From Alphaproteobacteria bacterium (GTDB lineage: Bacteria; Pseudomonadota; Alphaproteobacteria; UBA11136), in contig JADHSZ010000004.1 in the NCBI GenBank assembly GCA_016776635.1, positions 16,777-80,776 on the forward strand: a DNA stretch of 64,000 nt, written 5' to 3'. The position numbers were made by a program, and so were the translations under genes. The notes under the pieces are model-generated. The model saw only the letters and a list, made by a program, of their open reading frames with translations. It was not told the origin of the DNA and ran no database searches. Below, one piece after another: positions 11,417-38,242 of this stretch (its first letter is position 1; each line of letters starts with the position of its first letter).

Positions 11417-11484
11417 GGAAAGTATTTTTCGGCGGTTGCTCCCGCCCCTTTCCTATCCGCCAGCCGCGCTATACTGCCCCCATG
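11417..11484 (+). promoter_or_regulatory. Hairpin-promoter module, copy 2
   Basis: GGGAAAGTATTTTTCGGCGGTTGCTCCCGCCCCTTTCCT...CGCGCTATACTGCCCCCATG is about 85% identical to copy 1. The ATG at 11482 starts the GNAT gene. Confidence 0.45.
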
Positions 11485-12459
11485 CTGACCATCGAAACCA
11501 TCATCACCGGCGACCCCACGGGAAACCCCAACAGCGACCCGCACACCGCCGCGGCGCTGCGCGCCTGCGAGGCCCTCACCTTTCCCGCCTGCCGCTTTCT
11601 GTTGCGCGAACCACAAGGCAAGACCCTGGTGGCGGTGGCCGCGCGCTTCCATGACCAAGAGAACCCACCGGCAACAGACAGCGGCGGCGCGAAATACGAC
11701 CCCATAGGATTCGCCCTGGGCTGGGGCGGGCCGCGCGGCGAGTTCGAACTTATCTCCCTCTATACCGCTCCCCTGCTGCGCGGCATGGGCACGGGCGGCC
11801 GCCTTCTGACAAGCGTGGAGGAAGGCTTCGCGGCGCTCGGCTACAGCCGTGGTTTCCACTTCTATACCGTCCCCGACGACGACCCCGGCTTCACCCGTTT
11901 CCTCACCGGCCGCGGCTGGTCAGCGCCCGTCATCCGCGAGATTATCTGCAAGTCCACCCTGGAGCTCGCCCGGCAGACTCCCTGGCTCATGCGCGCGCGC
12001 CTGCCGGCCGGCTTCACCGTCAAGCCCTGGGCCGAAGTGACCACAGCCGAACGCGCCGCCATCGCCGCCCGCCACGAAACCGAAACCCCCTGGTACTCGG
12101 ACGACCAGGATCCTTTCGTTTTTGAGGAAAACTGCCACCCCGGCACCAGCCTCGCCCTCATGGACGAAGCCCAGGTGGCGGGCTGGGTGCTCACCCATGT
12201 GCCGCAGGACACGAAAGGCTTCCTGCGCTGGACCGTGTCCTTCGTCTCGCCGGAGATTCAGGGCTTCGGGCGCATCCTTCCGCTGTGGCGCGAGGTCGCC
12301 CTGCGCCAGGCGGAATTTCCCGAACTGCAACGTTTTACCTGGGGGGTTCCCGTCACCCATCCGCGCATGACCGCCTTTGCCCGGCGCCGCATGAAACCCT
12401 GGCTGTCCTGGATGGGCTACGCCTGCACGTCATTCAAGGACGTGGCTTCAAAGACGTGA
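11482..12459 (+). CDS. GNAT-family acetyltransferase-like protein
   Basis: 325 aa. Region ELISLYTAPLLRGMGTGGRLLTSVEEGFAALGY resembles the GNAT acetyl-CoA binding motif. Confidence 0.5.
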   Translation: MLTIETIITGDPTGNPNSDPHTAAALRACEALTFPACRFLLREPQGKTLVAVAARFHDQENPPATDSGGAKYDPIGFALGWGGPRGEFELISLYTAPLLRGMGTGGRLLTSVEEGFAALGYSRGFHFYTVPDDDPGFTRFLTGRGWSAPVIREIICKSTLELARQTPWLMRARLPAGFTVKPWAEVTTAERAAIAARHETETPWYSDDQDPFVFEENCHPGTSLALMDEAQVAGWVLTHVPQDTKGFLRWTVSFVSPEIQGFGRILPLWREVALRQAEFPELQRFTWGVPVTHPRMTAFARRRMKPWLSWMGYACTSFKDVASKT

Positions 12460-12495: not shown

Positions 12496-12768
12496 CTACT
12501 CGCCGCCTTCACCGCCCGCCGAATCCGAAGAGTCTCCGCCATCCCCAGACTCGTCCGACGGCTCCAGTTTAAGCAGCGTGATAGCCACGAAGATGGCGAG
12601 GCTCACTCCGCCCCAGAGGAAAAACCCCGCCATGTCCCCGGCGGCGGCATATTGCAGATAGAGCGCCACCACGATACCCGCGAAGACCAGCGTCAACAGC
12701 CAGCCCATGAAGCTGACGGGACGCACGCCCCAACCGATACGTTTTTTGCCGAACCAATAGTCTGACAT
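12496..12768 (-). CDS. Small membrane protein with acidic Gly/Asp/Ser-rich C-terminal tail; last gene of the precursor/radical-SAM operon (possible immunity or accessory protein)
   Basis: Start MSDYWFGKK preceded by AAGGGGGAG. Two transmembrane helices, tail ESGDGGDSSDSAGGEGGE. The same ORF extends to 12915 in the six-frame track. Confidence 0.45.
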   Translation of the reverse strand: MSDYWFGKKRIGWGVRPVSFMGWLLTLVFAGIVVALYLQYAAAGDMAGFFLWGGVSLAIFVAITLLKLEPSDESGDGGDSSDSAGGEGGE

Positions 12769-12802: not shown

Positions 12803-14275
12803 TCAGCCGGCGGAAGCGGCCCCTTCGCGTCCCGGATCATCCTCGAGAAGGCCGTTATCGTAAAGGCTCTGCAGGCTCTGTCCCACCAGGAAGATATCCT
12901 CACCGTTTGAGACAAGCTCGCCGATCACATCGCTGGCGGTCATGCGGTTTTCGTGGATGAGGCGGCCCATGCGGCCCATATAGGATATGCCGTTACAACT
13001 GTATTTCATGCCTCCGCCCTGCAGCTCGAAGCCCTCGTCCAGGGCCGAAAATTCCAGATCGTGGCGGAAGGAAACAACCTCGCTCGCCGGCACGCTTTCG
13101 GGCATGAACACGTCGATCATATCCTCCACCGCGGCGCGGAATTCCGCCACCGTCGTAAAGCGCGCCTCGGCGTAGATGCGATAGCCCAGCGGCCAGCGCG
13201 GCGAGGCCCGGGTCGGCGCCACCAGCTGTACCAGCCCCGAGAGCATATTGACCAAAAAGCCGCTGACGCAGGCGATGGTGGTGTGATCGCTCTGGAGTTT
13301 GGAAATCTTGCCTTCCTTGCCCGCGGCCACCAGCTTCTCGCGGCGTTCCTCGGCGCGGCCCGCCTTGGCCTTGGACATGAGCGCGTCCTTGCCCTGCATC
13401 ACCAACTCCACCCCCATCATTTCCTCGGGCGTAAAGGTGTCATACACGCGGTCGAGAATCTTGGTACTGAGGATGGAGAAACGCTGGGTGATGCAACAGT
13501 ATTTTTCATGCAGGGCCATGACTTTGCGCGTGAGGTCCAGGTTCTTCAACGGCGCCGCCGTGGTGGTCTGGGGCAGATGCCCGGTGACGCGGTAATGGTC
13601 CTCGATGAATTTGGGATAGTCGGGATTGTCCGCCGGGTCGGTGGCCCAATAGCAAAACCCGGTCTGGGCGGCATCACCAAACAGGTCCACCATCACCTGC
13701 AGCACGCCCCGCCACAGGGCCGCGTTTTCCGGGGTGTAAGGGTAATTGCCCTGGAACTTTTCCGCCGAGATGCCACAGAACCAACAGCCCACCGAACAGC
13801 CCTGGCTCAGCTCATAGGCGGCCACGGGGTGGACGATGGCCTCCGCGCTCACCCCCAGCTCGCTGGCCGAACGGCGGATCTGACGCTCGCGCCAGGCGTG
13901 AAAACGGGGGTTGGTTTTCTCGGTGCTGCCGGAATCGCGGATCAGGTCACGGTTGGCGATCATCTCCGCCAGATAGTCGTCCCAAGCCTGGGCCTTGGGC
14001 CATCGCGACATTTCATCGGTGAAGCGGTGTTTGGTGTGTTTGGTGTTCCACATGGGCTGCAGATCCTCGGGATCCACATCGATACCGTATTCCTCCGTCA
14101 CAACGGACGGATTCTTTACGTGCTCGCCCAGCTTGGCGCGAAACGTCGCGTCTGCCGAGAGCCGCTCCATGAACCGTTTCACATGGGCCAGCTCGCGCAG
14201 CTCTTCTTCACTGCGCGAGCTAAAGATGCGCTGATACTGTTTTGCCGAATCGCTTGGCTGATGCTGATACTTCAT
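12803..14275 (-). CDS. Radical SAM-like peptide maturase candidate (CSVGCWFCG = CX3CX2C) with an N-terminal Nif11-like domain
   Basis: 490 aa, immediately downstream of the three Nif11-leader precursors on the same strand. Cys triad with an aromatic residue before the third Cys. Residues about 20-75 (RELAHVKRFMERLSADATFRAKLGEH...VTEEYGIDVDPEDL) resemble a Nif11 fold. Confidence 0.6.
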   Translation of the reverse strand: MKYQHQPSDSAKQYQRIFSSRSEEELRELAHVKRFMERLSADATFRAKLGEHVKNPSVVTEEYGIDVDPEDLQPMWNTKHTKHRFTDEMSRWPKAQAWDDYLAEMIANRDLIRDSGSTEKTNPRFHAWRERQIRRSASELGVSAEAIVHPVAAYELSQGCSVGCWFCGISAEKFQGNYPYTPENAALWRGVLQVMVDLFGDAAQTGFCYWATDPADNPDYPKFIEDHYRVTGHLPQTTTAAPLKNLDLTRKVMALHEKYCCITQRFSILSTKILDRVYDTFTPEEMMGVELVMQGKDALMSKAKAGRAEERREKLVAAGKEGKISKLQSDHTTIACVSGFLVNMLSGLVQLVAPTRASPRWPLGYRIYAEARFTTVAEFRAAVEDMIDVFMPESVPASEVVSFRHDLEFSALDEGFELQGGGMKYSCNGISYMGRMGRLIHENRMTASDVIGELVSNGEDIFLVGQSLQSLYDNGLLEDDPGREGAASAG

Positions 14276-14305
14276 GGGCCCGTCATATTCCTCAGGTGGC
14301 GACCC

Positions 14306-14701
14306 TTACGTGAGGACAACGGCACCCTCGGCGACGACGGCCACCGTGGTCGCCACTTCGGCCGCCTCCGCAGCCGTGGTTGCCACTTCCGCGGCTTCGG
14401 CGGCCGTGGTGGCTGCCGCCACAGCCTCGACGGCCTGGGTGGCCACAGCGACCTTGGTGGTCACGGCCACGCTGTGGTGACCCTTGCCGCCGGCGATGCT
14501 GTCCAGCTGGTCGTCGGAAAGCTCTTGCTTGGTCTGTTCCCGGACATAGGCCTTGGCCTCGTCGATGGAAATGTCATAGCCCTTGGCGGCGGCGAACTCC
14601 ACCACCGAGGCGAGCCCGGTGGAGCCGGATTTAAGCTCCCCCAACAGCTCCGCGTTGGATTTCAGATCGGATACGAAACGCTCGATATCTGCCTGACTCA
14701 T
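14306..14701 (-). CDS. RiPP precursor peptide 1: Nif11-type leader with Gly-Gly site, Cys-free Ala/Val/Thr/Glu-rich core
   Basis: Leader MSQADIERFVSDLKSNAELLGELKSGSTGLASVVEFAAAKGYDISIDEAKAY..LSDDQLDSIAGG. Core KGHHSVAVTTKVAVATQAVEAVAAATTAAEAAEVATTAAEAAEVATTVAVVAEGAVVLT. Confidence 0.8.
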   Translation of the reverse strand: MSQADIERFVSDLKSNAELLGELKSGSTGLASVVEFAAAKGYDISIDEAKAYVREQTKQELSDDQLDSIAGGKGHHSVAVTTKVAVATQAVEAVAAATTAAEAAEVATTAAEAAEVATTVAVVAEGAVVLT

Positions 14702-14748
14702 GGTGCTGTCTCCCTCTTTAAAAAATTTCCCGGTAACCCTTATGATCC

Positions 14749-15150
14749 CTACGTAGCGACAACAGCCAACGCGGCCTCAGCCACCACCTCCACCGTGGTC
14801 GCCACATCGGCGGCCTCCACGGTAACGGTTACGGCCTCGGCCGCCGCCGCCGCAGTGGATGCCGCAAAGGCCGCCTCTACCGCGGCCACGGCGACCTTGG
14901 TGCCCATGCTGTGATGATGGTGATGATGGCCCTTGCCGCCGGCGATGCTGTCCAGCTGGTCGTCGGAAAGCTCTTGCTTGGTCTGTTCCTGGATATAGGC
15001 CTTGGCTTCGTCGATGGAAATGTCATAGCCCTTGGCGGCGGCGAATTCCACCACCGAGGCGAGCCCGGTGGAGCTGTCCTTAAGCTCACCCAACAGTTCC
15101 TCGTTGGATTTTAGATCGGCGACGAAGCGTTCCACATCGGCTTGGCTCAT
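14749..15150 (-). CDS. RiPP precursor peptide 2: Nif11-type leader, core starts KGHHHHHH
   Basis: GG at residues 71-72. Core KGHHHHHHSMGTKVAVAAVEAAFAASTAAAAAEAVTVTVEAADVATTVEVVAEAALAVVAT. The leader is about 90% identical to precursor 1. Confidence 0.8.
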   Translation of the reverse strand: MSQADVERFVADLKSNEELLGELKDSSTGLASVVEFAAAKGYDISIDEAKAYIQEQTKQELSDDQLDSIAGGKGHHHHHHSMGTKVAVAAVEAAFAASTAAAAAEAVTVTVEAADVATTVEVVAEAALAVVAT

Positions 15151-15263
15151 GGTGCAATTCCCCTTTTCACATCTTCACAGGAATCCGCCGCCACACCCCC
15201 CATCCCCATCAGGTGGAAACGGCAGCCGCAACGGCGGAACAATCGGAGCAGCGAAGGCGAGCC

Positions 15264-15623
15264 TCAGGTGGCGACGATGACGCCCTCGGCCGCGACGGCC
15301 ACGGTGGTGGCCACTTCGGCGGCTTCCTCGGCCACAGTGGCGACGGTGGTGGCGTTAACGGCGGTTTGATTCGAACTCACATTGGTGGCGTGATGATGAT
15401 GGCCCTTGCCGCCGGCGATACCGTCCAGCTGGTCGTCGGAAAGTTCCTGCTTGGCCTGTTCCTGGATATAGGCCTTGGCCTCGTCGATGGAAATGTCATA
15501 GCCCTTGCCACCGGCGAATTCCACCACCGAAGCCAGCCCGGTGGAGCCGGATTTGAGTTCATCCATCATCCCCGTGTCGGAATTAAGATCGGACACGAAG
15601 CGCTCGATATCTGCCTGGCTCAT
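15264..15623 (-). CDS. RiPP precursor peptide 3: Nif11-type leader, core KGHHHHATNVSSNQTAVNATTVATVAEEAAEVATTVAVAAEGVIVAT
   Basis: Same leader family, ending GIAGG. Shorter core ending IVAT. Confidence 0.8.
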   Translation of the reverse strand: MSQADIERFVSDLNSDTGMMDELKSGSTGLASVVEFAGGKGYDISIDEAKAYIQEQAKQELSDDQLDGIAGGKGHHHHATNVSSNQTAVNATTVATVAEEAAEVATTVAVAAEGVIVAT

Positions 15624-15783: not shown

Positions 15784-17250
15784 GTGCCCTTCGGGGGATT
15801 CAGTAGATTTCGGCCAGTCTCAGCGGATTGCGGGGGAATGTTGTTTCAACGGTTCTTAGTAAGTGTGGGCGCCGGTCTTACCGGGCTGCTGCTGGGAACG
15901 GGCGGTTCCCAGGCGCAGACCCTGGCCGAGGCGCTGACCCAGACCTATCACAATAATCCGGCCATCGCCGCGGCGCGGGCCACGCTTCGCTCCACGGTGG
16001 AAACCCTGCCCGAGGCGCGGGCTGACTTCCTGCCCACCATCTCCTTCGCAGCCAAGGAGGGCCGCACCCGCATACGCCAATCCACCAAGGACGAGTTCGC
16101 CACCACCAACACCGCCTCGCGACTGGTGGAAACCGCCACAGACCGTTCCATTGCGCTGGATGTAACCCTCAACCTCTATGACGGCGGCCAGGTGATCGCC
16201 GCCATCAACAAGGCCGAGGCCAATATCGCGGTGGAAAAATACACCCTCGAAAGCACCGAACAGTCGACTCTGCTTTCGGCGGCCGAAGCCTATGCCGATG
16301 TAATCCTGAAGGAACACCTTCTCGATCTTTCCATCGAAAACGAGAACGACCTCCTGAAGCTCAAAGCCTCCGTGGACGATCTCTACGCCCACCAACAGGT
16401 CACCATCACCGATGTGGCCCAGGTGGACGCCAAGCTCGCCTCCGCCAGGGCGGACAGGGCCCAGGCCCGGGGCAGCCTCCGCGCGGCGCGGGGCCAGTTC
16501 AAATACGTCATCGGCACCGTACCTGCCGGCCTTGAAAAAGAGCCCACCCTGCCGAACCCGCCCCCCACCCTGGAAGAAGCCCTGGCCATCGCCGAAAAGA
16601 GGAGTCCTTCCATTCTCGCCGCCCAATACCAGATCAAGGCCGACGAATTCGATGTCCGCGCCAGAGAGGGAAAACTGCTTCCCAGCGTGGATTTCTATAA
16701 TGACCTGACCCGTGAATGGGACAGCTCCACCTACACTGGCAGCTCCGACTACAAGGAGCACAGCAAGGAGGACAGCTGGGAAATCGGCGTCGATGTCACG
16801 GTGCCCCTCTATAACGGCGGCGCCTACTATGCCGACATCCGCGAGGCCAAACAGACCGTGGCCTATGACAGGAACACCCTGATCGATACCCGCAACCAGA
16901 TCATCGAAGACGTGACCTCGGACTGGGCCACCCTCGAAGCCGACCACGCCAGCCTCAAAAGCAGCGAGGAACAGGTGAAGTCCGCCACCATCGCCGTCAA
17001 GGGATTCGAGCGCCAGTTCAAGAGCGGCACCAGCACCATGCAGGAATTGTTGAACGCCCAGAGCTCGCTCATCAGCGCCTACGAAGCCCAGTACGAAGCC
17101 GTCAACGACGTCTTCACTTCCACCGCGACCCTGCTCAACCATATGGGAACCTTTGGCGCCCGCGAACTGGGCCTGGCCGGTGAATTCTACAATCCCGACG
17201 CCTATCTGGAAAAATCACGCTACAGGTTTTACGGCACCGATATCGACTAA
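15784..17250 (+). CDS. TolC-family outer membrane efflux protein
   Basis: Signal peptide (probable start MLFQRF at 15838). Two repeats of the outer-membrane-efflux-protein helix/strand pattern. Divergent from the precursor operon. Confidence 0.8.
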   Translation: MPFGGFSRFRPVSADCGGMLFQRFLVSVGAGLTGLLLGTGGSQAQTLAEALTQTYHNNPAIAAARATLRSTVETLPEARADFLPTISFAAKEGRTRIRQSTKDEFATTNTASRLVETATDRSIALDVTLNLYDGGQVIAAINKAEANIAVEKYTLESTEQSTLLSAAEAYADVILKEHLLDLSIENENDLLKLKASVDDLYAHQQVTITDVAQVDAKLASARADRAQARGSLRAARGQFKYVIGTVPAGLEKEPTLPNPPPTLEEALAIAEKRSPSILAAQYQIKADEFDVRAREGKLLPSVDFYNDLTREWDSSTYTGSSDYKEHSKEDSWEIGVDVTVPLYNGGAYYADIREAKQTVAYDRNTLIDTRNQIIEDVTSDWATLEADHASLKSSEEQVKSATIAVKGFERQFKSGTSTMQELLNAQSSLISAYEAQYEAVNDVFTSTATLLNHMGTFGARELGLAGEFYNPDAYLEKSRYRFYGTDID

Positions 17251-17317: not shown

Positions 17318-19309
17318 ATGGATGTATGTCTGGTAAATATGCCCATTGCCGCCGTGCAACGGCCTTCCCTGGCGCTGGGGCTGCTCGGCGCGATGCTGAA
17401 ACGGGACGGCATTTCAACCAAGATTCTCTATCCCGACCTGTGGTTCGCCGAGTATTTCGGCCTGCGTTTCTATCGCAAGCTCTATCATACCCGGCCCGAG
17501 GACCTGCTCGCCGAATGGCTGTTCGCGGGCACCGCCTTCCCCGATTTTGAGCCCGACCACGACCGCTTCTTCGAGCGTCTGTTCGCGCGCAATGAAAAAA
17601 TATGCCACGAGGAAGGCCCTGAAGCCTTCAAGGCGATGATGCTGGAAAGCCGGGAAAAGGTGCCCGATTTCATCGACTGGGTGATCCGGGAAATACTCGC
17701 CCTCAGCCCCCGCATCGTCGGCTGCACCTCCATGTTCCAACAGCACGTGGCGACGCTGGCCCTGTTCCGCCGCCTCCGCGAAAGTGACCCCTCGGTGGTC
17801 ACCATGATGGGCGGACCCAATTGCGAGACGGTGATGGGCAAGACCACGCACCAGTCCTTTCCCTGGGTCGATTATCTGGTATCCGGCGAGGCCGATGCCT
17901 TCATCGCGCCGCTATGCCGTGAAATTCTCGATAAAGGACACGGGGCCGACCCCAGCCACCTCTCCGACGGCATCTTCACCCCGGCCCACCGCGAAACCGG
18001 CTATCCCGTCTCCGCCCATTCCCTTGACGGCCTGCCACGGGCCACCTCGGCCTCGCTGGGGGACCTGCCGCCGCCTGACTATGACGACTATTTTGAGGAG
18101 CTTTCCGGCAGCCTCTTCAAGAACTGGATCACACCCAATCTTCTGATTGAGGCCTCGCGGGGATGCTGGTGGGGGGAGAAACACCATTGCACCTTTTGCG
18201 GGCTCAACGGCGAGGGCATGGTCTACCGCTCGAAAACGGCCGATCAGGTGCATGAGGAAATCGACACCCTGGCGCGAAAATACAAGGTCACCAATTTCGA
18301 GGCCGTGGATAATATCCTGCGGATGGATTATTTCACCACCTTGCTGCCCCGTCTCGAAGACTTGCCCGAGGACTATCTTTTTTTCTTCGAGACCAAATCG
18401 AACCTCAAGCGCACACAGATCCAGCAATTACGGCGTTCCGGCGCGCGCTATATCCAGCCCGGCATCGAAAGCCTGGACAGCCGCGTCCTGAAACTCATAG
18501 ATAAGGGCGCCCAAGCCTGGCAGAACGTCCAGCTCTTGAAAAACTGCCGCCAAAACGGCATCTGGGTGTCTTGGAGCATGATCGTCGGCTTCCCCGGGGA
18601 GGAAGACGAATGGTACGCGAAGATGGCCGAGTTCATCCCTCTGCTGGCCCATCTCCAGCCCGGCGGCTTCATCGGCCTGCGTTACGATCGCTTCAGCCCC
18701 TACGTCAACGACCCGGAGGCCTTCGGTCTCGAACTCGCCCCATCGGAGCTCTACCCTTACGTCTATCCCCTGACGCAGGAAAAGATCGCCGACCAGGCTT
18801 ATTTCTTCGTCGAAAAGAACAAGCCCAACTTTTTCACCACCCTTGTTCAGACGCCCATACCCGGCCATCCCGGAATCGAGGCCGCCCGCGACGCCTTCCG
18901 CAAATGGCGCAGGGAATGGCCCGGCCCTGAACTCTGCGCCCGCGAGGTGGGGGGGGAGATTCATCTGCGCGACACCCGCCCCTGTGCGGTAACGGAACAG
19001 CACCGCATCACCGGAACCGACCGCCTAGCGCTGGAGGCCTGCGACACCGCCCCCACACAGGCCCGGCTTATGGAAACACTCGCGCAGGACGCTACCCCAC
19101 AAGACATCACCGACGCCCTGGCCCGGCTCATAGCCAATAAATTTATTTTCGAACTCGATGGCCGCCTGATCTCGCTGGTATTGAATGAGCCCATGGAATC
19201 CATGCCTTCCGACAGACTCCCGACCTTTGGCGCGGTGATGGCGCCGCAAGCCGCCCCACGGGATGACCCGAACGAGGATAACGAGGACCAGTCCCGAAAG
19301 GTGGCGTGA
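17318..19309 (+). CDS. B12-binding-domain radical SAM enzyme (RiPP maturation radical-SAM C-methyltransferase-like)
   Basis: Start MDVCLVNMPIAAVQRP after a GAGGGGGAGG RBS. N-terminal cobalamin-binding-like domain, Cys cluster RGCWWGEKHHCTFCG (CX7CX2C), long C-terminal extension. Confidence 0.7.
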   Translation: MDVCLVNMPIAAVQRPSLALGLLGAMLKRDGISTKILYPDLWFAEYFGLRFYRKLYHTRPEDLLAEWLFAGTAFPDFEPDHDRFFERLFARNEKICHEEGPEAFKAMMLESREKVPDFIDWVIREILALSPRIVGCTSMFQQHVATLALFRRLRESDPSVVTMMGGPNCETVMGKTTHQSFPWVDYLVSGEADAFIAPLCREILDKGHGADPSHLSDGIFTPAHRETGYPVSAHSLDGLPRATSASLGDLPPPDYDDYFEELSGSLFKNWITPNLLIEASRGCWWGEKHHCTFCGLNGEGMVYRSKTADQVHEEIDTLARKYKVTNFEAVDNILRMDYFTTLLPRLEDLPEDYLFFFETKSNLKRTQIQQLRRSGARYIQPGIESLDSRVLKLIDKGAQAWQNVQLLKNCRQNGIWVSWSMIVGFPGEEDEWYAKMAEFIPLLAHLQPGGFIGLRYDRFSPYVNDPEAFGLELAPSELYPYVYPLTQEKIADQAYFFVEKNKPNFFTTLVQTPIPGHPGIEAARDAFRKWRREWPGPELCAREVGGEIHLRDTRPCAVTEQHRITGTDRLALEACDTAPTQARLMETLAQDATPQDITDALARLIANKFIFELDGRLISLVLNEPMESMPSDRLPTFGAVMAPQAAPRDDPNEDNEDQSRKVA

Positions 19310-19315
19310 CCGGCA

Positions 19316-20482
19316 ATGATCGTCCATCGGGAAACAGCCCGTTTCGATACGCCTCTGCCCCTTGAATGCGGAAAGTTTCTGCCCGAATTCGAGCTCGCCT
19401 ATGAAAGCTACGGCAAGCTCAACAACAAGCGGGACAACGCCGTCCTCATCTGCCACGGCCTCACGGCCACCCAGAACGCCGCCGGCATTCCCAAGGGCGA
19501 GAACGGAAAAGCCGGAAACGAAAAAGAGGCCAAGCCGGGCTGGTGGGACACCGCCATCGGCCCCGGAAAGCCCATCGATACAAAACGTTTTTACGTGATC
19601 TGCGCTAATGTTCTGGGGAGTTTCGGTGGCTCCACCAGTCCCGCCAGCATCAATCCCGAAACCGGAAAACCCTACGGCATGGCCTTTCCCGTAGTCACCA
19701 TCACCGACATGGTAGACGCCCAGAAACATCTGGCCGACCGGCTCGGCATCGAAAAATTTCATGCCATTGCCGGCGGCTGCATGGGCGGGTTCCAGGTGCT
19801 GGCCTGGATGTCGCGCTACCCCGGCTGTCTTTCAAGAGCCGTGGTCATCAGCACCACGCCCCGGGTCTCGGCCCATACCATCGCCCTGTGGTCGGTGCTG
19901 CGCGAGGCCATCCGTTCGGACCCGGCCTGGAACGGTGGCGATTATTACGGCGGGTCCGCCCCCGACAAGGGCATGGGGCTAGCCGCCGCCTTCGGCGCCC
20001 TGTTCTGGATGAACCGCCAGACCATGGACCGAAAATTCGGCCTCAAGCCGCTCGACCACAGGGAACCGGCTTACGGTTTGGAACCCGAATTCGAGGTGGA
20101 GGCCTTCTTGAGCCAGGTAAACAAGAACGCCGCGGGAAAGATCGACGCCAACGCCCTGATTTATCTCACCCGGGCCATGGATTATTTCAACATGACCCGC
20201 GGCGGTGTGGAACTGGCGTCTCTTTTTGCGGGCGCGCGCTACCGCGCCCTGCTGGTGAGTTATAAATCCGACTGGCGCTATCCGCCACAAGAGGCCGAGG
20301 AAATCCACGAAGCGTTGAAAGCGGCAGACATAGACTCACACCACGAAATTCTTGAGAGCCATTTCGGCCATGGCGCCTTCATCTACGATTTCGAGGGCCT
20401 GGGGCCGGTATTAAAGGAATTTCTCCACAGTCCGGCTCACAGCAAACCCTCCAGCCCAAAGACATCTGCGGGCAAAAAATAA
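19316..20482 (+). CDS. metX: Homoserine O-acetyltransferase MetX
   Basis: MetX alpha/beta-hydrolase signature throughout, with an inserted loop GIPKGENGKAGNEKEAKPGWWDT. Starts 6 nt after the radical-SAM stop. Confidence 0.85.
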   Translation: MIVHRETARFDTPLPLECGKFLPEFELAYESYGKLNNKRDNAVLICHGLTATQNAAGIPKGENGKAGNEKEAKPGWWDTAIGPGKPIDTKRFYVICANVLGSFGGSTSPASINPETGKPYGMAFPVVTITDMVDAQKHLADRLGIEKFHAIAGGCMGGFQVLAWMSRYPGCLSRAVVISTTPRVSAHTIALWSVLREAIRSDPAWNGGDYYGGSAPDKGMGLAAAFGALFWMNRQTMDRKFGLKPLDHREPAYGLEPEFEVEAFLSQVNKNAAGKIDANALIYLTRAMDYFNMTRGGVELASLFAGARYRALLVSYKSDWRYPPQEAEEIHEALKAADIDSHHEILESHFGHGAFIYDFEGLGPVLKEFLHSPAHSKPSSPKTSAGKK

Positions 20483-22026
20483 TCCAGCGACAACAGCGGA
20501 CACCCCACCAGACCGGTGAGGAAATCATGGCTGGAAAGGGCGATGAATCCGGCCTCCCGCGCCAATTCCCGGTACCGCCCAGCCTCCATCAGATTTTGCC
20601 GGGAAAACCCGTGGCTGGCGTCGAGATAGGCCATGAGATGGCTCCCCACATGGGCCGCCGCTGCCTCGGGCGCCACCGTATGGGCCTCAATCACCAGCAT
20701 GCCGTGGCGCCGGGTCCAGGGCAGCCAACTCTGAAAATGCTCCACCAGATTCTGCGCCATATAACCGGGCTCAATCAGATCACCCTCTTCATCCACGAAG
20801 ACGCCCGGCGGACCGGTCTCCCGCGAGCGTGTGGCGGCGACGTCACGAGGTGGTTGATAACGCCGGTTGTGGATCACCGACTTGCTCACATGCAGGGCCT
20901 GGCGGGCGTCAATCCCGTGACCGGCCAGGGCTTCCCCCAGCCCATCGGGATCGCCGATATCCCCGGCCACCACCAGATGGGGAATCCCCGCCGCCTCAAG
21001 GGCCGCCTGGGCGGTCTTCCGCGCCACCGGGTTGTATTCCGCCCCCACCATGACCAGAGGAAACTCCGAGAGCGCCTTGCCGCGCCGGGTTTTAGCGGCG
21101 ATGGCGTGAAACAGTTCCTTCAACAGCGTGCCGTCGCCACAGCCGGTATCGATCACATAACCGGGCTGCGCCGCCAGCGGCTCGCGGTCGAACAGGGGCA
21201 GGGCCAGTTCCATGAAGGGCCCGGCGCAGAGACGCGTGAACACGGCCCCGCTGGCCTCGATATCCAGCGCCCGGTCGAGATGGCTCTCAACGCCGCCTTC
21301 GTCCCTGTCGAGAACAGGCGACATGTCACCGAACAGCATCTCCGGCACACGGGAAAAGGTAGGAAGATAGGAAAGAGGCAGGAAATACTGCGCCGCCATG
21401 CCTGCCGCCATCTCACCTTCGGGGGTGAGAGCATAATCGCCACTCCCTTCCTCGGCCCATCCCTGCGCCGCCAGCGCCTGCCAGCAAAGGTGCGGCAGCG
21501 CCACTTTATCCTGTGGGTCATTGCCCGCGAGCATGCGCAAGGCCACCGCCACCAGCGGACCCGTCACATGCAGCCGCACCCGCTCGCCCATGACGTCGCC
21601 GTTAGCCGGTAGATGGTGGAGCGCCGCCTCCCACGCTTCGCAGGCATCCTCATCCGCAGTTCCAGCAAGCAGGGCCATGGCGGCGGCGAGCAACTCCGGA
21701 AAACCGTCATAGGCGGAGAGAAAAGGCAGCCATGCCCACCCATCTTCGCTCAAGGATACCCGCGCCACCGCGCCGCTGCCGCTTATCCGCACCAACCCCT
21801 GGGAGGCCAACAGCCTGGCGGCAAGATGAAGATAGCCGCGCCGTGCCCCATACCGCGCCGCCAGATCATCCACTGAAAGGGGCGCCCCGGTCCCGGAAAG
21901 CTCCGCCAGGATACCTTTTTCCGCCAGGGCGCAGACCGTGGTTCCCAAGGCTATGCCGTCGATGTTGAAACAGACCTTGCGCCAGACCGCACGCCCCAGC
22001 GCCGCCTTGTCCGTATCCACGGTCAT
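20437..22026 (-). CDS. Large class I SAM-dependent methyltransferase with N-terminal winged-helix/dimerisation-like domain
   Basis: 529 aa. Motif I VIDTGCGDGTLLKEL around residue 280. The N-terminal region resembles O-methyltransferase dimerisation domains. Adjacent to the NHLP export genes. Confidence 0.6.
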   Translation of the reverse strand: MTVDTDKAALGRAVWRKVCFNIDGIALGTTVCALAEKGILAELSGTGAPLSVDDLAARYGARRGYLHLAARLLASQGLVRISGSGAVARVSLSEDGWAWLPFLSAYDGFPELLAAAMALLAGTADEDACEAWEAALHHLPANGDVMGERVRLHVTGPLVAVALRMLAGNDPQDKVALPHLCWQALAAQGWAEEGSGDYALTPEGEMAAGMAAQYFLPLSYLPTFSRVPEMLFGDMSPVLDRDEGGVESHLDRALDIEASGAVFTRLCAGPFMELALPLFDREPLAAQPGYVIDTGCGDGTLLKELFHAIAAKTRRGKALSEFPLVMVGAEYNPVARKTAQAALEAAGIPHLVVAGDIGDPDGLGEALAGHGIDARQALHVSKSVIHNRRYQPPRDVAATRSRETGPPGVFVDEEGDLIEPGYMAQNLVEHFQSWLPWTRRHGMLVIEAHTVAPEAAAAHVGSHLMAYLDASHGFSRQNLMEAGRYRELAREAGFIALSSHDFLTGLVGCPLLSLDYFLPADVFGLEGLL

Positions 22027-22075: not shown

Positions 22076-25000
22076 TCAGGCCACCTGACGCAGCGCCATC
22101 TCGGAGAAATAACCGCCCTGATCCATCAGTTGCTGATAATTCCCGGCCTCGATGACCCGGCCCTTGTCGATCACATAGATCATGTCGGCGTCGATGATGG
22201 TGCTGAGCCTGTGGGCGATGACAATGCGGGTGCTGTTGAGGGTATTGAGTCCCTGGCGCACGATTTCCTGGGTCTCGTTGTCGAGAGCGCTGGTGGCTTC
22301 GTCGAAAATGAGAATACGCGGCCGATGCACCACCGCGCGGGCGATCATCAAACGCTGGCGCTGACCGCCGGAAAGGGTCGAGGCCCCTTCGCCGAGATAG
22401 GTCTCCATGCCCATGGGCATGGCCTCGATATCCTTGTCGAGTCCAGCCAGCCGCGCCGCTTCCCAGGCATCGTCATGGGAAAGATTGGCGCCGGCGGTAA
22501 TATTGTGGAACACCGAGCCCGACAACAGGCGACCGTTTTGCAGAACCACACCGAAATTGTGGCGCATGGCCCGCTTATCGAGATTGGAAATTTCCTTGTC
22601 GTCAAGAAACACCGAGCCCGCTTCGGGCTCATCGAAGCCAAGGATCAACCGCACCACCGAAGACTTACCCGCCCCCGACGGCCCCACCAGGGCCACGAAC
22701 TGGCCGGGCTTGGCCTCGAAGGTCATGCCGTCGAGAACCAGGGGGCTGTCCTCCTCGTAGCGGAACTGCACATCATGGATCGCCAGCCCCCCCAACACCT
22801 CGCCCGGATCCTCGGAGCCTTCCTCGCTTTCCTGCTTCGCCTCCAGGATCGGCGCCACCCGCTCGTAGAGGGGCTTGATGTTGACAAGCTGGATCAGAAC
22901 GCCGGTGATGCCGAAGACGGCGCCAAGGAACTGCCCAAAGGCCACGTGGAAGGAAACAAATTTCGCGACGGGCATTACCTTTTGCAGCTTTCCGCCGGTG
23001 ATGTCGGCCCAGTCGGTGGGCGCGTGGTAAAACGCCAGCAGCTCATGCCCCTGCCAACCGATGATGAAAATGATCCCGAACACGGCGAAGTAACTAAAGC
23101 CCGACTTGAACACGATGAGCGCGTTGTTCAGGTTCTGCATATAAAAGCTGGTGGACTGGAGTTGGGCATAGGGCATGGCCCATTGGGCAAACGCATTGGG
23201 TTCGCTTCCGGTCACCCGCAGCTTGGACACCGCGCCCAGCAATTGCATGACAATTCCCTGAATCCGTCCGCCCAGGAACAGCATCTCGCGGCTGCGCGAC
23301 AGCACCTTACGGCCAAGGACGTAGGTAATGACGCTGTAAATGGCGCAGATAATCACGGTAATGCCCGCCAGCCGCCAGTTGTAATAGGTCATGAGGCCAA
23401 GACTGAAGAGCCCCACCACGCCGTGCATGAGCGACGTCACCACCGATCCCGACAACAGGCTGCGCATGGCATCCACACCCTGGGCGCGGTTCGCCAGATC
23501 ACCCACCGTATAATCACGGAAGAACGAGGCCGGCAGTTTCAACAGCCGGTCCCATACCGCCGCCTGCACGTCATGGGTCATTCTGCCCTCGATGCGCAGC
23601 ATGGAAAGCGACTGCACCAGCGAGAAGGCCACCATGGAAAATCCGGCAAGAATCAAGGCGCCCACCATGACGGTGAGTTGATCCAACTGCGCCTCGGGAA
23701 TTATGGGGTCCATGATCCAGCCGATGATAATGGGCGTGGCCAGCGATAAAAGACCGGCCACCAGGATCATGGCCACCACCAGGCCCACATCCCGGCCACT
23801 GCCGCGCAGACCAAACATGAGAATATCCGAAGGACGCATCTTTCCGGGCTGGAAGGGACGGTAGAAATAATAAGCGGATTCCGAGAGGGTGGCAGCCAGT
23901 TCGCGTGTCACCTTTGTTCTGGTCCCCGCCACGGGGTCCACAAGTTCGTATTCCCGCGCCGAGACCGGCAACAGGGCGCAGGGTTTCTTGTCCTCGCCGA
24001 CAAAGGCGAGAATAGGCCCCTGGTCCACCCGCCACCATTCCCCTTCCAAAATCACGGTGCGAATAAAGAAACCGGACTGGCGGGCAAGAATCTTCAAGGG
24101 GTCCTTGGCCTTGGCGAGGGGTTGGCTCAATTTCTCCGGCGGCGCCACTTCGATCCCCGCCCTATGGGCCACCGTCTGCGCGGCGGCCACAAGAGGGTCC
24201 GAGGACAGGTCCAGAACCCCCTCCGATCCGGATTCTAGAACCCCGGCCAGCGCCCGCAGGGAACCCGTGAAGCTGCGTTTGGAAAAGATGCGCTTTTGGA
24301 CAAAACGGCTGGCGAAGGATTTTGAGCGGTCCTCAACGGTCTTGGCGAAAACACCGAGGACGCCCGTATGGAGGCAATCCAGATCGCCCATGAGGTTGCC
24401 CTTGCCCAGCCACTGTTCCGTGATGCACGCCTCGAAGCTGCCCTCACCGTCACAGGTCATCCAGGAAGCATTGGTGAGCGGATAAAAGACCTCGCCGTCG
24501 CCGCTCACTGGGCATTTTCCGAATAACGAGAGAGTCCCAGCCGGCGCCGCGACCCAAACCATATTATGGGCGGCCTCGATGCTGGCCCCGGCGGGAACCG
24601 GGGTGGTGGTGTCCGCTGACAACAGAACGGCGTTACCCGGTGGCCGCCCTGGCGCCACACCCTGTAACAGCGGGCCGATCCAGCTTTCCACAAGGGCGGC
24701 TATCTGCGGCTTGGCTTTTTTATCTCCTGCCAGTCCCCGCAGATCATGGCGGGTAGTCTCGGCCAATCTTGCGCCATTGGTGGGTACCGCCACGAGACTA
24801 CCCGGGGTGGAGGTGTCACCAATCCCGAAGACCGCGCCCCCGGCCTCGATCCGCGTTACATGAGTGCGAATGCCGTGAATCCCCTGCGAGGCTTCGGTGG
24901 GACCGTCAACCACATAGAACACGTCCACGCCACCCTGGAGAATCAGCCACAGGCGGTCCGGCCTGGAGAGAAGAAAGGGCGTATTGCTGCCCATGGCCTT

Positions 25001-33836: not shown

Positions 33837-33971
33837 TAGCGGTAATGTGCGGAAAAGATTGGCGTCCCCTAGGGGAGGGGATGTCAAAACCATAAAAACC
33901 GCAGAAAACTGCGATTCTCTCCGAAGCTCCATAAGCAATTGCTACGGAATTGCTACAGTATGGAGCCACCA

Positions 33972-35603: not shown

Positions 35604-35708
35604 CATATTGATATTTTTTCTGGTTTGGAGGGAGGCCTTTTTTGGCCATCTATTCCTTCAGACCCACAGTTCGATAAACCAAAATTGATTTTTCAAAATG
35701 GATAACAA

Positions 35709-37037: not shown

Positions 37038-37340
37038 TTTCAATATATTAAGATTATTTATGTAAAAACCAAGTAAACCTTGATGCCCTACATTATATAA
37101 TACATACCCTGTTACTAGAACATTTTTTACTTATTAAGTGTTTCACCAGTGTTTATAAGCATCATCAGAATAGAGATTTGTCGTATTGCAAATACGATTT
37201 TCCTAGGAAAACTTGGGTTATCAGGCCTACCCTTTTTAAAGGAAAAAGTATGATCTAAGACCAGATAATACGGTTATGACATGGGAACAGTCATGCTCCA
37301 ATGGCGCAGCAATAATCGTAAATTCTGAGGGATAATAATT

Positions 37341-37928: not shown

Positions 37929-38242
37929 CAAACCAAGCATTAGGAAAGAATAGACCCATAAAATGCCTCCAGGATGCCCCCAGATTGATGGCATCTATTC
38001 TTATGGGGCATAGCAGTCTAGGCCTTCTGATGCGAGTCCTCGGCGCTCTGACAGCGATGCGCCCCTATTCAAGGTCAGAGCTAGGACATATCTATATCTG
38101 CTGTTGACCATAAGCGAACATTGAGGGCGGTTTGAGTAGCCCTTAACAAGATTTTCACCTCAAAGAACTTGCCTTTATTTCTGGATAAATCATCCGAAAT
38201 CCGTCTTAAAATGAACCGCCGGTAAGACGAGGAGGAAAATCA

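What the first reader, a model, noticed from the sequence alone, without database searches (positions are those of the whole stretch)
14306..15623. Precursor cores are poly-His-initiated, Cys-free A/V/T/E-rich low-complexity segments with internal repeats
After the Gly-Gly site each core begins KGHH, KGHHHHHH or KGHHHH, a natural His-tag-like, possibly metal-binding N-terminus. The rest is about 45-60 residues of Ala/Val/Thr/Glu with periodic Glu (for example TTAAEAAEVA twice) ending in VVLT/VVAT/IVAT. Three paralogues with conserved leaders and divergent cores suggest a small combinatorial family. Alternating D/L patterns after epimerisation could give a beta-helix or membrane-active structure.
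Basis: seen in the sequence. Interest (0 to 1): 0.8.

Follow-up and report, generated by a model that had tools for sequence, protein, structure and literature searches.

The report
His-headed precursors of D-amino-acid peptides
Three tandem genes encode precursors of a widespread but unstudied family of secreted bacterial peptides that carry a natural Lys-Gly-polyHis head and a hydrophobic tail and sit beside an enzyme that converts L- to D-amino acids; it is a good lead for natural-product discovery, not a new principle.

Summary
Three minus-strand genes (14306-14701, 14749-15150, 15264-15623) encode Nif11-leader RiPP precursors. Their leaders end in Gly-Gly. Their Cys-free, A/V/T/E-rich cores start KGHH, KGHHHHHH and KGHHHH and end VVLT, VVAT and IVAT.

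The pattern is not chance. About 100 distinct homologous cores from marine Rhodospirillaceae MAGs and cultured Hyphomicrobiales share Lys1 (100%), Gly2 (93%), His3 (75%) and a C-terminal A-V-A-V-V-V-L-T motif. His is about 100-fold enriched in the first 12 core residues.

In loci long enough to show neighbours, the precursors lie directly beside a PoyD-type radical-SAM epimerase. A tandem-GNAT acyltransferase usually follows. Many loci also carry a B12 radical-SAM C-methyltransferase, an AprA-MT1-like methyltransferase, a MetX-like hydrolase and the NHLM C39-peptidase ABC/HlyD/TolC exporter.

Best reading:
- These are genuine products, not spacers.
- They are epimerised, possibly C-methylated and possibly Lys1-acylated.
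- They are cut after Gly-Gly on export, which would expose H2N-Lys-Gly-His, formally an ATCUN-type Cu/Ni site.

Metal binding, a beta-helix and lipidation are inferred, not shown. I found no paper describing this family. I rate it a new variant of a known kind, of moderate interest.

The parts
15264..15623 (-). Precursor A3 (119 aa). Leader 15408-15623, core 15267-15407 (47 aa, KGHHHH...IVAT), His run 15390-15401.
   Evidence: ORF. TIGR03798 36.5 bits and PF07862. Identical to P0014, found on public metagenome contigs.
14749..15150 (-). Precursor A2 (133 aa). Leader 14935-15150, core 14752-14934 (61 aa, KGHHHHHH...VVAT), His run 14911-14928.
   Evidence: ORF. TIGR03798 37.1 bits. 9-bp tandem repeat over the His codons. 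AlphaFold2 gives leader pLDDT 80-91 and core below 50.
14306..14701 (-). Precursor A1 (131 aa). Leader 14486-14701, core 14309-14485 (59 aa, KGHH...VVLT), His pair 14474-14479, internal 30-bp tandem duplication 14344-14410.
   Evidence: ORF. TIGR03798 37.5 bits. Tandem repeat. Identical to P0002, annotated by NCBI as a Nif11-like leader peptide family RiPP precursor.
12803..14275 (-). PoyD-type radical-SAM peptide epimerase (490 aa), 30 nt downstream of precursor A1.
   Evidence: TIGR04517 530 bits against a cut-off of 325. CSVGCWFC at residue 160. Found beside the precursors in related loci long enough to show neighbours.
12496..12768 (-). Small 90-aa gene downstream of the epimerase. The sequence shows long hydrophobic stretches that look like two membrane spans, and an acidic tail. 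Candidate immunity or accessory protein (weak inference).
   Evidence: Called as a gene on public contigs L059 and L060. Sequence. No equivalent gene is called at this position in L001 or L002.
11482..12459 (+). Tandem-GNAT acyltransferase (325 aa), convergent with the epimerase operon.
   Evidence: PF00583. AlphaFold2 pLDDT 88. Foldseek top hits are tandem GNATs 2wpw, 7q3a, MshD and VipF. Found next to the epimerase in most related loci.
15784..17250 (+). TolC-family outer-membrane channel, divergent from the precursor operon.
   Evidence: TIGR01844 257 bits against a cut-off of 225.
17318..19309 (+). B12-binding radical-SAM C-methyltransferase. The ORF extends to 17153; the gene called on public contigs is 663 aa.
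   Evidence: TIGR03975 705 bits against a cut-off of 282. Cx7CxxC motif CWWGEKHHCTFC. Gene call in L059.
19316..20482 (+). MetX-like alpha/beta-hydrolase or acyltransferase (388 aa).
   Evidence: PF00561. NF001209 395 bits against a cut-off of 331. Present in many related clusters.
20437..22026 (-). AprA-MT1-like methyltransferase (529 aa), predicted to be metal-dependent.
   Evidence: PF23525, PF23526 and PF23589. PDB 6b39 AprA methyltransferase 1 at E 6e-59 and 7ucl at E 1e-61. Present in many related clusters.
22076..25147 (-). NHLP/Nif11 bacteriocin export ABC subunit 2 (permease/ATPase, 1023 aa).
   Evidence: TIGR03797 837 bits against a cut-off of 709.
25144..27375 (-). C39-peptidase ABC exporter (743 aa), predicted to cut after Gly-Gly during export.
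   Evidence: TIGR03796 1032 bits against a cut-off of 853. PF03412 Peptidase_C39 114 bits at residues 23-150.
27379..28632 (-). HlyD-type periplasmic adaptor of the NHLM export system.
   Evidence: TIGR03794 296 bits against a cut-off of 156.
28766..29929 (-). 387-aa protein with a weak N-terminal Nif11-like domain and a C-terminal region with HRD...HHLH, a possible 2OG/Fe(II) oxygenase. It may be a further maturase.
   Evidence: TIGR03798 E 3.6e-5 and TIGR04324 E 8.8e-5, both below cut-off. PDB 9zn4 Nif11 domain protein at E 0.0075. Orthologue at 396 bits near the cluster in L002 and L003. Motif.

Best explanation
The three genes encode substrates of a proteusin-like RiPP pathway that uses a Nif11 leader instead of an NHLP leader.

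Shown:
- The precursors are Nif11-leader precursors.
- A PoyD-type radical-SAM epimerase gene lies directly downstream.
- A conserved gene set surrounds them: tandem GNAT, B12 radical-SAM C-methyltransferase, AprA-MT1-like methyltransferase, MetX-like hydrolase and the C39-ABC/ABC2/HlyD/TolC exporter.
- The family has about 100 distinct homologous cores with conserved termini.

Inferred pathway:
1. The folded, helical Nif11 leader docks the precursor on the epimerase, which converts selected L-residues of the unstructured A/V/T/E core to D-residues.
2. The B12 enzyme may C-methylate Val, Thr or Ala-type side chains, as PoyB and PoyC do.
3. The GNAT may acylate the epsilon-amine of the invariant Lys1, as selidamide GNATs do.
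4. The C39-peptidase ABC transporter cuts after Gly-Gly and exports the product through HlyD and TolC.

Inferred product. A peptide of 47-61 residues in this window (median 48 across the family), with net negative charge and three parts:
- a Lys-Gly-(His)n head;
- a Thr/Gln/Glu-patterned middle;
- an uncharged A-V-A-V-V-V-L-T tail.

Role of the His run. It appears to be a variable-length module of the finished product, not a biosynthetic handle. After cleavage it forms H2N-Lys-Gly-His, an ATCUN-type Cu(II)/Ni(II) site, followed by further His. The most likely role is therefore metal binding at the exposed end of a peptide whose hydrophobic D/L tail inserts into, or assembles on, a membrane.
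For: Precursor identity:
- Nif11 models are matched above cut-off in the three window genes and in all 88 aligned homologues.
- The Gly-Gly-Lys junction is invariant.

Epimerase link:
- TIGR04517 at 530 bits with CxxxCxxC.
- In related loci long enough to show neighbours, from Rhodospirillaceae MAGs, Microvirga, Roseibium, Bosea, Devosia, Mesorhizobium, Bradyrhizobium, Spiribacter and Geminicoccus, an epimerase lies next to the precursors.
- The minimal clusters, in Roseibium, hold only the precursor, epimerase, GNAT and exporter.

Export and cleavage: TIGR03796 with a C39 domain, TIGR03797, TIGR03794 and TolC.

The core is the product:
- It runs to the stop codon.
- The C-terminal residue is Thr in 93% of cores and position -3 is Val in 95%.
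- A core-only HMM found only C-terminal parts of 100-130 aa Nif11 precursors among 1.84 billion representatives.
- AlphaFold2 folds the leader (pLDDT 80-91) but not the core (below 50).

The His head belongs to the product:
- A single cluster mixes His-headed and His-less paralogues (L001, L013).
- The run length ranges from none to 8 in the metagenome set and reaches 10 in L011.
- His heads occur in minimal clusters that lack the B12 enzyme, the hydrolase and the methyltransferase.

ATCUN geometry:
- His is at position 3 in 75% of cores, and the first His is at position 3 in 72 of 80.
- The motif is defined as H2N-X-X-His, where neither X is Pro (PMC8425997).

Lys1 acylation precedent: GNATs in NHLP and Nif11 clusters fatty-acylate Orn1 or Lys1 of the core, and nostolysamide comes from a Nif11 precursor (PMC8784127).

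Patterning that is not alpha-helical:
- Polarity shows a period of about 3.2 residues (z 21 over all cores, z 6.6-8.1 in 22 non-redundant cores).
- The 3.6-residue period is depleted over all cores (z -5.2 for hydropathy) but not significantly so in the 22 non-redundant cores.
- Counted from the C-terminus, Glu falls on odd positions and the even positions are apolar.
Against: - There are no chemical data. D-residues, methylations, acylation, the cleavage site and metal binding are all inferred.
- Lys at +1 also occurs on distant Firmicutes Nif11 precursors whose loci show no detected GNAT or epimerase. Lys1-Gly2 may therefore only reflect the protease's P1'/P2' preference.
- The GNAT belongs to a narrow family: only 13 hits, even with a profile. 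Its relation to the selidamide GNATs could not be tested.
- Twenty to twenty-five percent of cores have no His (KGGGGG, KGS, KGQ, KT). The head is therefore dispensable for at least some products.
- A net negative, Glu-rich peptide is a poor fit for a polytheonamide-type transmembrane beta-helix.
- The cluster has no PoyE/AerE-type N-methyltransferase, and Asn is only 1.8% of core residues.
- The periodicity statistics are inflated by shared ancestry among the sequences.
Confidence: 0.68

Rival explanations
1. The Lys-Gly-(His)n stretch is a processing element, not a functional part of the product. It would act as an extended P' recognition site for the C39 peptidase or a spacer or handle for a maturase, and might be trimmed afterwards.
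For: - It directly abuts the Gly-Gly site.
- Lys1 is invariant and Gly2 is 93% conserved.
- Lys at +1 is also common on distant Nif11 precursors in Firmicutes that use the same transporter family but whose loci show no detected GNAT or epimerase.
- A MetX-like alpha/beta-hydrolase that could trim peptides is present in many clusters.
Against: - His-headed and His-less paralogues share one enzyme set (L001, L013).
- Run length varies from none to 8-10 residues.
- His heads occur in minimal clusters that lack the hydrolase (Roseibium).
- The argument holds for Lys-Gly but not for the His run.
Confidence: 0.2
2. The products are selidamide-like lipopeptides. The conserved GNAT fatty-acylates Lys1, and the lipid is the membrane anchor. 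The His run would then be a polar linker or head group, with or without metal.
For: - A GNAT lies next to the epimerase in most loci, including the minimal clusters.
- Lys1 is 100% conserved in the metagenome set.
- The Bradyrhizobium loci, which have no GNAT within the fetched flank, have Lys, Arg or Gly at position 1.
- Published precedent: Lys1 of the Nif11-type NpuA core is C16-acylated by NpuN (PMC8784127).
Against: - The protein is a tandem GNAT, and its homology to KspN, PhaN or NpuN is untested.
- Some paralogues in GNAT-containing clusters lack Lys1.
- The published genome-neighbourhood filtering for selidamide clusters required a lanthionine synthetase (PMC8784127). None was found among the window genes I annotated, and the cores have no Cys.
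- The GNAT could instead be an immunity enzyme that acetylates the free amine of the toxin.
- This reading is compatible with the best explanation and does not exclude it.
Confidence: 0.3
3. The products are polytheonamide-type beta-helical ion channels, fully alternating D/L, that span a membrane.
For: - A PoyD-family epimerase and a PoyB/PoyC-family B12 C-methyltransferase are present.
- Median core length is 48 residues, against a 49-residue polytheonamide core (PMC9060474).
- The cores are rich in Val, Ala and Thr.
- Polarity periods of about 3.2 and about 6.7 residues are close to half a turn and one turn of a beta-6.3 helix, and the alpha-helical period is depleted over all cores.
Against: - Each window core carries 4-6 Glu or Asp residues, and net charge is about -3.
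- There is no Asn ladder, no PoyE/AerE-type N-methyltransferase and no LanM-like dehydratase. The cluster methyltransferase is AprA-MT1-like, whereas AerE is GenN/PrmC-like.
- Minimal clusters lack the C-methyltransferase.
- Many characterised PoyD homologues install only a few D-residues (my own knowledge of Morinaka et al. 2014; not checked here).
Confidence: 0.2
4. The ORFs are not functional RiPP genes. They would be chance ORFs in GC-rich DNA, or Nif11-domain proteins with a meaningless low-complexity tail.
For: - The region has about 60% G+C and produces long spurious ORFs on both strands.
- The core composition is low-complexity.
Against: - 103 homologues keep the frame, the junction and the C-terminal motif.
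- Each gene has a Shine-Dalgarno sequence.
- The cluster context is conserved across families of Alphaproteobacteria and in some Gammaproteobacteria.
Confidence: 0.02

Closest known systems
Polytheonamides and aeronamides (proteusins: PoyA/AerA with PoyD/AerD and PoyB/C or AerC)
   Same: - Ribosomal precursor with a large folded leader.
- PoyD-family radical-SAM epimerase (TIGR04517).
- B12 radical-SAM C-methyltransferase of the same NCBIfam family (TIGR03975).
- A long (about 48 aa), Cys-free core rich in Val, Ala and Thr.
   Different: - The leader is Nif11, not NHLP.
- The Gly-Gly junction is cut by a C39-ABC exporter instead of a dedicated protease.
- The core is anionic and Glu-rich, with a Lys-Gly-polyHis head and a conserved VVLT tail.
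- There is no Asn ladder, no PoyE/AerE N-methyltransferase and no LanM-like dehydratase.
- A tandem GNAT, an AprA-MT1-like methyltransferase and a MetX-like hydrolase are present instead.
Selidamides, especially nostolysamides (Nif11 precursor NpuA plus GNAT NpuN; PMC8784127)
   Same: - Nif11-type leader with a Gly-Gly junction.
- Lys as the first core residue.
- A GNAT-superfamily gene in the cluster.
   Different: - There is no lanthionine synthetase and no Cys in the core.
- An epimerase is the constant partner.
- The GNAT is a tandem GNAT of a narrow family, and its homology to NpuN, KspN or PhaN is not established.
- Acylation has not been demonstrated.
Prochlorosins (Nif11 precursors of marine picocyanobacteria)
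   Same: Several paralogous precursors with conserved Nif11 leaders and diverged cores are processed by one enzyme set, forming a natural combinatorial library.
   Different: - Prochlorosin cores are Cys/Ser/Thr-rich and are cyclised by ProcM.
- The cores here have no Cys, keep conserved N- and C-terminal motifs, and pair with an epimerase.
ATCUN-headed host-defence peptides (piscidins FFHH/FIHH, histatin 5 DSH...HH; my own knowledge, with the motif definition from PMC8425997)
   Same: The predicted mature N-terminus is H2N-X-X-His followed by more His, the arrangement that binds Cu(II) or Ni(II) in those peptides.
   Different: - Those peptides are cationic, all-L and eukaryotic.
- The peptides here are anionic, bacterial, probably contain D-residues, and are exported by a type-I-like system.
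- Metal binding has not been tested.
CTB family bacteriocins (NF038167 / PF28158)
   Same: Sub-threshold similarity covers the Gly-Gly junction and the start of the core in 56 of 88 family members.
   Different: The best score is 28 bits, below the curated cut-off of 32. These proteins are not members by NCBIfam's own criterion.

Membership tests
Nif11-like leader peptide RiPP precursors (TIGR03798 / PF07862) | Leader matches the family HMM above the curated cut-off | tested here: met
   36.5-37.5 bits against a cut-off of 32.3; PF07862 26.7-38.4 bits against 23.8. All 88 aligned homologues match.
Nif11-like leader peptide RiPP precursors (TIGR03798 / PF07862) | [quoted passage not shown] | tested here: met
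   IAGG|K in all three genes. TIGR03796 at 1032 bits with PF03412.
Proteusins in the strict sense (polytheonamide type) | Nitrile-hydratase-like (NHLP) leader | tested here: not met
   No TIGR03793 match for the window genes. Only 1 of 88 homologues reaches E 4e-4. The leader is Nif11.
Proteusins in the strict sense (polytheonamide type) | PoyD-family radical-SAM epimerase encoded next to the precursor | tested here: met
   TIGR04517 530 bits against a cut-off of 325. CxxxCxxC at residue 160. Co-occurs in related loci.
Proteusins in the strict sense (polytheonamide type) | B12 radical-SAM C-methyltransferase of the PoyB/PoyC family | tested here: met
   TIGR03975 705 bits against a cut-off of 282. 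It is absent from the minimal clusters of the family.
Proteusins in the strict sense (polytheonamide type) | PoyE/AerE-type Asn N-methyltransferase and an Asn ladder in the core | tested here: not met
   The cluster methyltransferase matches AprA MT1 (6b39, E 6e-59). AerE is GenN/PrmC-like (PMC9060474). Asn is 1.8% of core residues.
Proteusins in the strict sense (polytheonamide type) | D-residues and a beta-helical structure in the mature product | not testable with these tools
   Needs chemistry. There is only indirect periodicity evidence.
Selidamides (GNAT-lipidated NHLP/Nif11 RiPPs) | Lys or Orn acceptor at core position 1 and a GNAT-superfamily gene in the cluster | tested here: met
   Lys1 in 100 of 100 cores. 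PF00583 and a tandem-GNAT fold. The GNAT is adjacent to the epimerase in most loci.
Selidamides (GNAT-lipidated NHLP/Nif11 RiPPs) | GNAT belongs to the KspN/PhaN/NpuN clade | tested here: inconclusive
   Two database searches returned only 13 close relatives and no named selidamide GNAT. No PDB relative by sequence beyond generic GNATs.
Selidamides (GNAT-lipidated NHLP/Nif11 RiPPs) | Fatty acyl group on the core | not testable with these tools
   Needs MS of the co-expressed precursor and GNAT.
ATCUN (amino-terminal Cu/Ni) motif peptides | Sequence H2N-X-X-His, neither X being Pro, at the predicted mature N-terminus | tested here: met
   Lys-Gly-His in all three window cores. His3 in 75 of 100 family cores. 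Motif definition from PMC8425997. A free alpha-amine depends on cleavage after Gly-Gly, which is inferred.
ATCUN (amino-terminal Cu/Ni) motif peptides | High-affinity Cu(II)/Ni(II) binding | not testable with these tools
   Needs spectroscopy or ITC.
CTB family bacteriocins (NF038167) | HMM score above the curated cut-off (32 bits) | tested here: not met
   18.9-28.0 bits. The best score among 88 homologues is also below the cut-off.
Lanthipeptides on Nif11 leaders | Cys plus Ser/Thr in the core and a LanM or LanB/C enzyme | tested here: not met
   No Cys in the window cores, and Cys in only 2 of 100 family cores. No lanthionine-synthetase domain was found in the cluster genes I scanned against Pfam or NCBIfam across 6.7-44.6 kb.

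The most novel reading that the evidence does not exclude
This would be a previously unrecognised class of bacterial secreted peptides. They would be D-amino-acid-containing and anionic, possibly Lys1-lipidated, and would carry a genetically encoded ATCUN-plus-polyHis metal-binding head of tunable length. Marine Rhodospirillaceae and soil or plant-associated Hyphomicrobiales would use them as copper- or nickel-dependent toxins or as metal-scavenging or metal-buffering agents. The pathway would also include the first RiPP use of an AprA-MT1-type metal-dependent methyltransferase.
Probability: 0.2. Interest if true: 0.8.

Novelty: new variant of a known kind. Interest (0 to 1): 0.55.

Why it matters
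Only a handful of products of radical-SAM epimerase pathways have been characterised.

This family is large: about 100 distinct cores from one search. It is phylogenetically broad and is present in cultivable strains, including Roseibium suaedae DSM 22153, R. litorale, Microvirga puerhi, M. rosea and Mesorhizobium spp. It can therefore be tested directly.

It combines several features not seen together in any described RiPP:
- a native Lys-Gly-polyHis head, formally an ATCUN site;
- an acidic patterned middle and a conserved hydrophobic tail;
- an enzyme set of tandem GNAT, AprA-MT1-like methyltransferase and MetX-like hydrolase.

If the head binds metal, this would be a new way of building a metallopeptide from a gene. 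If not, the natural His tag still makes the precursors convenient substrates for studying epimerase regioselectivity.

Tried and rejected
- Core-only HMM (alignment A5) against 1.84 billion representative proteins. It gave only 4 hits, all from the same family. The query is too short and low-complexity to map the wider distribution, but it showed no attachment of this core to any other kind of protein.
- Search for homology between the GNAT and the selidamide GNATs. A single-sequence search and an 18-sequence profile search each returned only 13 close relatives with no informative names. PDB sequence searches gave only generic GNATs. The afdb50 fold library was unavailable. Foldseek against the PDB showed only a generic tandem-GNAT fold.
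- Supplementary tables of PMC8784127, which list the precursors of putative selidamide clusters, are not held.
- Literature searches found no paper on this family: KGHHHH, CTB family bacteriocin, Nif11 + epimerase + proteusin, rhizobial genera + epimerase + Nif11, PoyD + Nif11, ATCUN + RiPP, and selidamide + epimerase.
- The PDB has no sequence relative of the epimerase.
- AlphaFold2 of the precursor gave no structure for the core. This was expected, and the method cannot model D-residues.
- I considered and rejected an engineered His-tag contaminant. The run length differs between independent assemblies and species, and the flanking sequence is native.
- I considered and rejected the 653-aa antisense ORF as a gene.


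Full report
**1. What is in the sequence**

- Each has a Shine-Dalgarno sequence 6-9 nt upstream.
- Residues 1-72 of each match the Nif11 leader models above their curated cut-offs: TIGR03798 at 36.5-37.5 bits against 32.3, and PF07862.
- Each leader ends in IAGG.

The cores are 59, 61 and 47 residues long. They start KGHH, KGHHHHHH and KGHHHH and end VVLT, VVAT and IVAT. They contain no Cys and are 70-85% Ala, Val, Thr and Glu. Net side-chain charge is -3 to -4.

The TTAAEAAEVA repeat in the first gene is a 30-bp tandem duplication. The six-His run of the second gene is a perfect 9-bp tandem repeat. This suggests that head length changes by slippage or duplication.

Leaders are 84-90% identical at the DNA level with no gaps. 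Cores are 62-68% identical with many indels.

**2. Surroundings**

On the minus strand, 30 nt downstream of the last precursor gene, lies a 490-aa PoyD-type radical-SAM epimerase: TIGR04517 at 530 bits against a cut-off of 325, with CSVGCWFC at residue 160.

Convergent with it is a 325-aa GNAT-superfamily protein. Its AlphaFold2 model (pLDDT 88) is a tandem GNAT.

Divergent from the precursors are:
- TolC;
- a B12 radical-SAM C-methyltransferase, TIGR03975 at 705 bits, with a Cx7CxxC motif;
- a MetX-like alpha/beta-hydrolase.

On the other strand come:
- a methyltransferase homologous to the iron-dependent AprA MT1 (PDB 6b39, E 6e-59);
- the NHLM export set, made up of ABC2, the C39-peptidase ABC1 and HlyD;
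- a 387-aa protein with a weak Nif11-like N-terminus and an HRD...HHLH region.

The AprA-MT1-like enzyme is not the PoyE/AerE type. AerE is GenN/PrmC-like (PMC9060474).

**3. The family**

One protein search with precursor A2 returned 103 homologues. Most come from metagenomes, and several are annotated as Rhodospirillaceae or Alphaproteobacteria MAGs. They give 100 unique cores:
- Lys1 100%, Gly2 93%, His3 75%, His4 65%, His5 46%.
- The His run ranges from none to 8 residues.
- Median core length is 48 residues.
- Composition is A 23%, V 22%, T 17.5%, E 7.5%, with almost no C, W, R or P.
- The C-terminus reads A-V-A-[V/A]-[V/I]-V-[L/A/V]-T, with the final Thr at 93% and Val at -3 at 95%.

His makes up 20.9% of the first 12 core residues and 0.20% of the rest. 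The first His sits at position 3 in 72 of the 80 His-bearing cores.

A scan of species-representative genomes found the family in cultured Hyphomicrobiales: Microvirga puerhi, M. rosea, Roseibium suaedae, R. litorale, Bosea and several Mesorhizobium, plus a Devosia MAG. Their cores start KHHH, KKHH or KHHGGH. A few Gammaproteobacteria also carry it, such as Spiribacter, with KT... and no His.

Clusters carry 1-9 paralogous precursors.

All 88 aligned members match TIGR03798. None reaches the CTB bacteriocin cut-off.

A core-only HMM against 1.84 billion representative proteins found only C-terminal parts of such precursors.

**4. Co-occurrence**

- In related loci long enough to show neighbours, the epimerase lies next to the precursors.
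- The tandem GNAT lies beside the epimerase in most loci. It is convergent in the marine group and co-directional in Hyphomicrobiales.
- The B12 enzyme, the MetX-like hydrolase and the AprA-MT1-like methyltransferase are frequent but not universal.
- The Roseibium clusters hold only the precursor, epimerase, GNAT, HlyD and the two ABC proteins. Their cores still have a KHHH head, a Glu-rich middle and an AVLT tail.
- Single clusters (L001, L013) mix His-headed and His-less paralogues.

The His run is therefore not tied to any accessory enzyme and is unlikely to be a recognition element.

Distant Nif11 leaders in Firmicutes and Bacteroidota carry Cys-rich cores, and their loci show no detected epimerase. 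That is the known promiscuity of Nif11 leaders and says nothing about this family.

**5. How it most likely works**

Shown:
- the identity of the precursors;
- the conserved enzyme set;
- the conserved core termini.

Inferred from the known biochemistry of TIGR04517, TIGR03975 and TIGR03796:
1. The folded Nif11 leader presents the unstructured core to the epimerase for L-to-D conversion. AlphaFold2 gives the leader pLDDT 80-91 and the core below 50.
2. The B12 enzyme may C-methylate side chains.
3. The C39-ABC exporter cuts after Gly-Gly and exports the product through HlyD and TolC.

The predicted product starts H2N-Lys-Gly-His. That satisfies the sequence definition of an ATCUN Cu(II)/Ni(II) site (PMC8425997), and further His residues follow it.

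Three facts point to a role in the finished product, most simply metal binding:
- the first His is almost always at position 3;
- run length is free to vary;
- the run is dispensable for the enzymes.

This remains untested. It also depends on the alpha-amine staying free.

**6. Lys1 and the GNAT**

Published selidamide GNATs in NHLP and Nif11 clusters fatty-acylate Orn1 or Lys1 of the core. The nostolysamide precursor has a Nif11 leader (PMC8784127). The invariant Lys1 and the conserved GNAT fit that model, and epsilon-acylation would leave the ATCUN site intact.

The link is uncertain for three reasons:
- Lys at +1 also occurs on distant Firmicutes precursors whose loci show no detected GNAT.
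- The Bradyrhizobium correlation (no GNAT in the fetched flank, and Lys, Arg or Gly at +1) comes from a single clade.
- I could not establish homology to KspN, PhaN or NpuN.

**7. Structure of the product**

Polarity along the cores has a strong period of about 3.2 residues: z 21 for all cores and z 6.6-8.1 for 22 non-redundant cores. Weaker periods appear near 6.7 and 2.1 residues. The alpha-helical 3.6-residue period is depleted over all cores (z -5.2 for hydropathy) but not significantly so in the 22 non-redundant cores.

Counted from the C-terminus, Glu falls on odd positions (-7, -9, -11, -13, -17, -21). The even positions are purely apolar.

This is compatible with an alternating D/L arrangement. 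It is also numerically close to half a turn and one turn of a beta-6.3 helix. Shared ancestry inflates these statistics. The acidic composition, the missing Asn ladder and the missing PoyE-type enzyme all argue against a simple polytheonamide-like transmembrane channel.

**8. Comparison and novelty**

- The system works like a proteusin pathway but fails the defining NHLP-leader test, so it is a Nif11/epimerase relative, not a strict member.
- It resembles selidamides in Lys1 and the GNAT. However, the published genome-neighbourhood filtering for selidamide clusters required a lanthionine synthetase (PMC8784127), and this cluster has none.
- It resembles prochlorosins only in having leader-conserved, core-diverged paralogues.

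PGAP-type annotation already names these genes generic Nif11 RiPP precursors. In nine searches of the held literature I found no description of the His-headed family, its C-terminal motif or its enzyme set.

I rate it a new variant of a known kind with moderate interest (0.55). The strongest untested reading is a genetically encoded metal-binding, D-residue-containing, possibly lipidated peptide class. I give that about 0.2 probability.

Noticed in passing
window 28766-29929 (-): A 387-aa protein with a weak Nif11-like N-terminal domain (TIGR03798 E 3.6e-5; PDB 9zn4 E 0.0075). Its C-terminal region carries PAHRDTWYG...HHLH and has weak similarity to a 2OG-Fe(II) oxygenase family. It looks like an enzyme carrying a leader-like domain. 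An orthologue (396 bits) lies near the cluster in L002 and L003.
   Followed up: partly
window 20437-22026 (-): A homologue of the iron-dependent C-methyltransferase AprA MT1 (PDB 6b39 and 7ucl, E about 1e-60) is conserved in many of these RiPP clusters. I know of no characterised RiPP role for this methyltransferase type, and its substrate here is unknown.
   Followed up: partly
window 19316-20482 (+): A MetX-like alpha/beta-hydrolase passes the NF001209 homoserine O-acetyltransferase cut-off but is conserved inside the RiPP cluster in many genomes. It may O-acylate or trim the peptide rather than make methionine.
   Followed up: partly
window 12496-12768 (-): A small 90-aa gene between the epimerase and the GNAT has long hydrophobic stretches that look like two membrane spans, and an acidic Gly/Asp/Ser/Glu tail. 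It is called as a gene on public contigs. No equivalent gene is called at this position in L001 or L002. It could be an immunity protein.
   Followed up: partly
window 33939-40200: A low-G+C island (0.42-0.48 against about 0.6) begins with a phage-type integrase (DUF6538 plus Phage_integrase, 33939-35603). It also holds an HTH protein and a trypsin-like/PDZ protease. It is probably an integrated mobile element that bounds the region.
   Followed up: partly
window 43219-44607 (-): A 462-aa protein has nitroreductase and ThcOx (cyanobactin oxidase-like) domains. It may mark a second, azol(in)e-type RiPP locus in the window.
   Followed up: no
window 12953-14914 (+): A 653-aa ORF runs antisense to the epimerase and two precursor genes. 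I read it as a by-product of the high G+C content and not a gene, but I did not test it against any family library.
   Followed up: partly
L001/L006 11419-11799 and 13191-13745; L011 604-1354; L012 6316-6735: Some clusters also hold paralogues with the same leader but other core types. Examples are ...QTQAAVVIN, a His/Thr/Asn-alternating core (GTVHTHTTLNTNTHINTNTN...), and cores ending ...NDGGGGGNPPSSSVIATVC with a C-terminal Cys.
   Followed up: no
window 9611-10432 (+): A methyltransferase resembles the rhodoquinone biosynthesis enzyme RquA but scores below the cut-off (NF038261, 159 bits against 175). A CBS-domain protein and a Na+/H+ exchanger lie nearby. Together with the public contigs that carry the same genes, this fits an uncultured alphaproteobacterial (Rhodospirillaceae-like) source.
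   Followed up: partly
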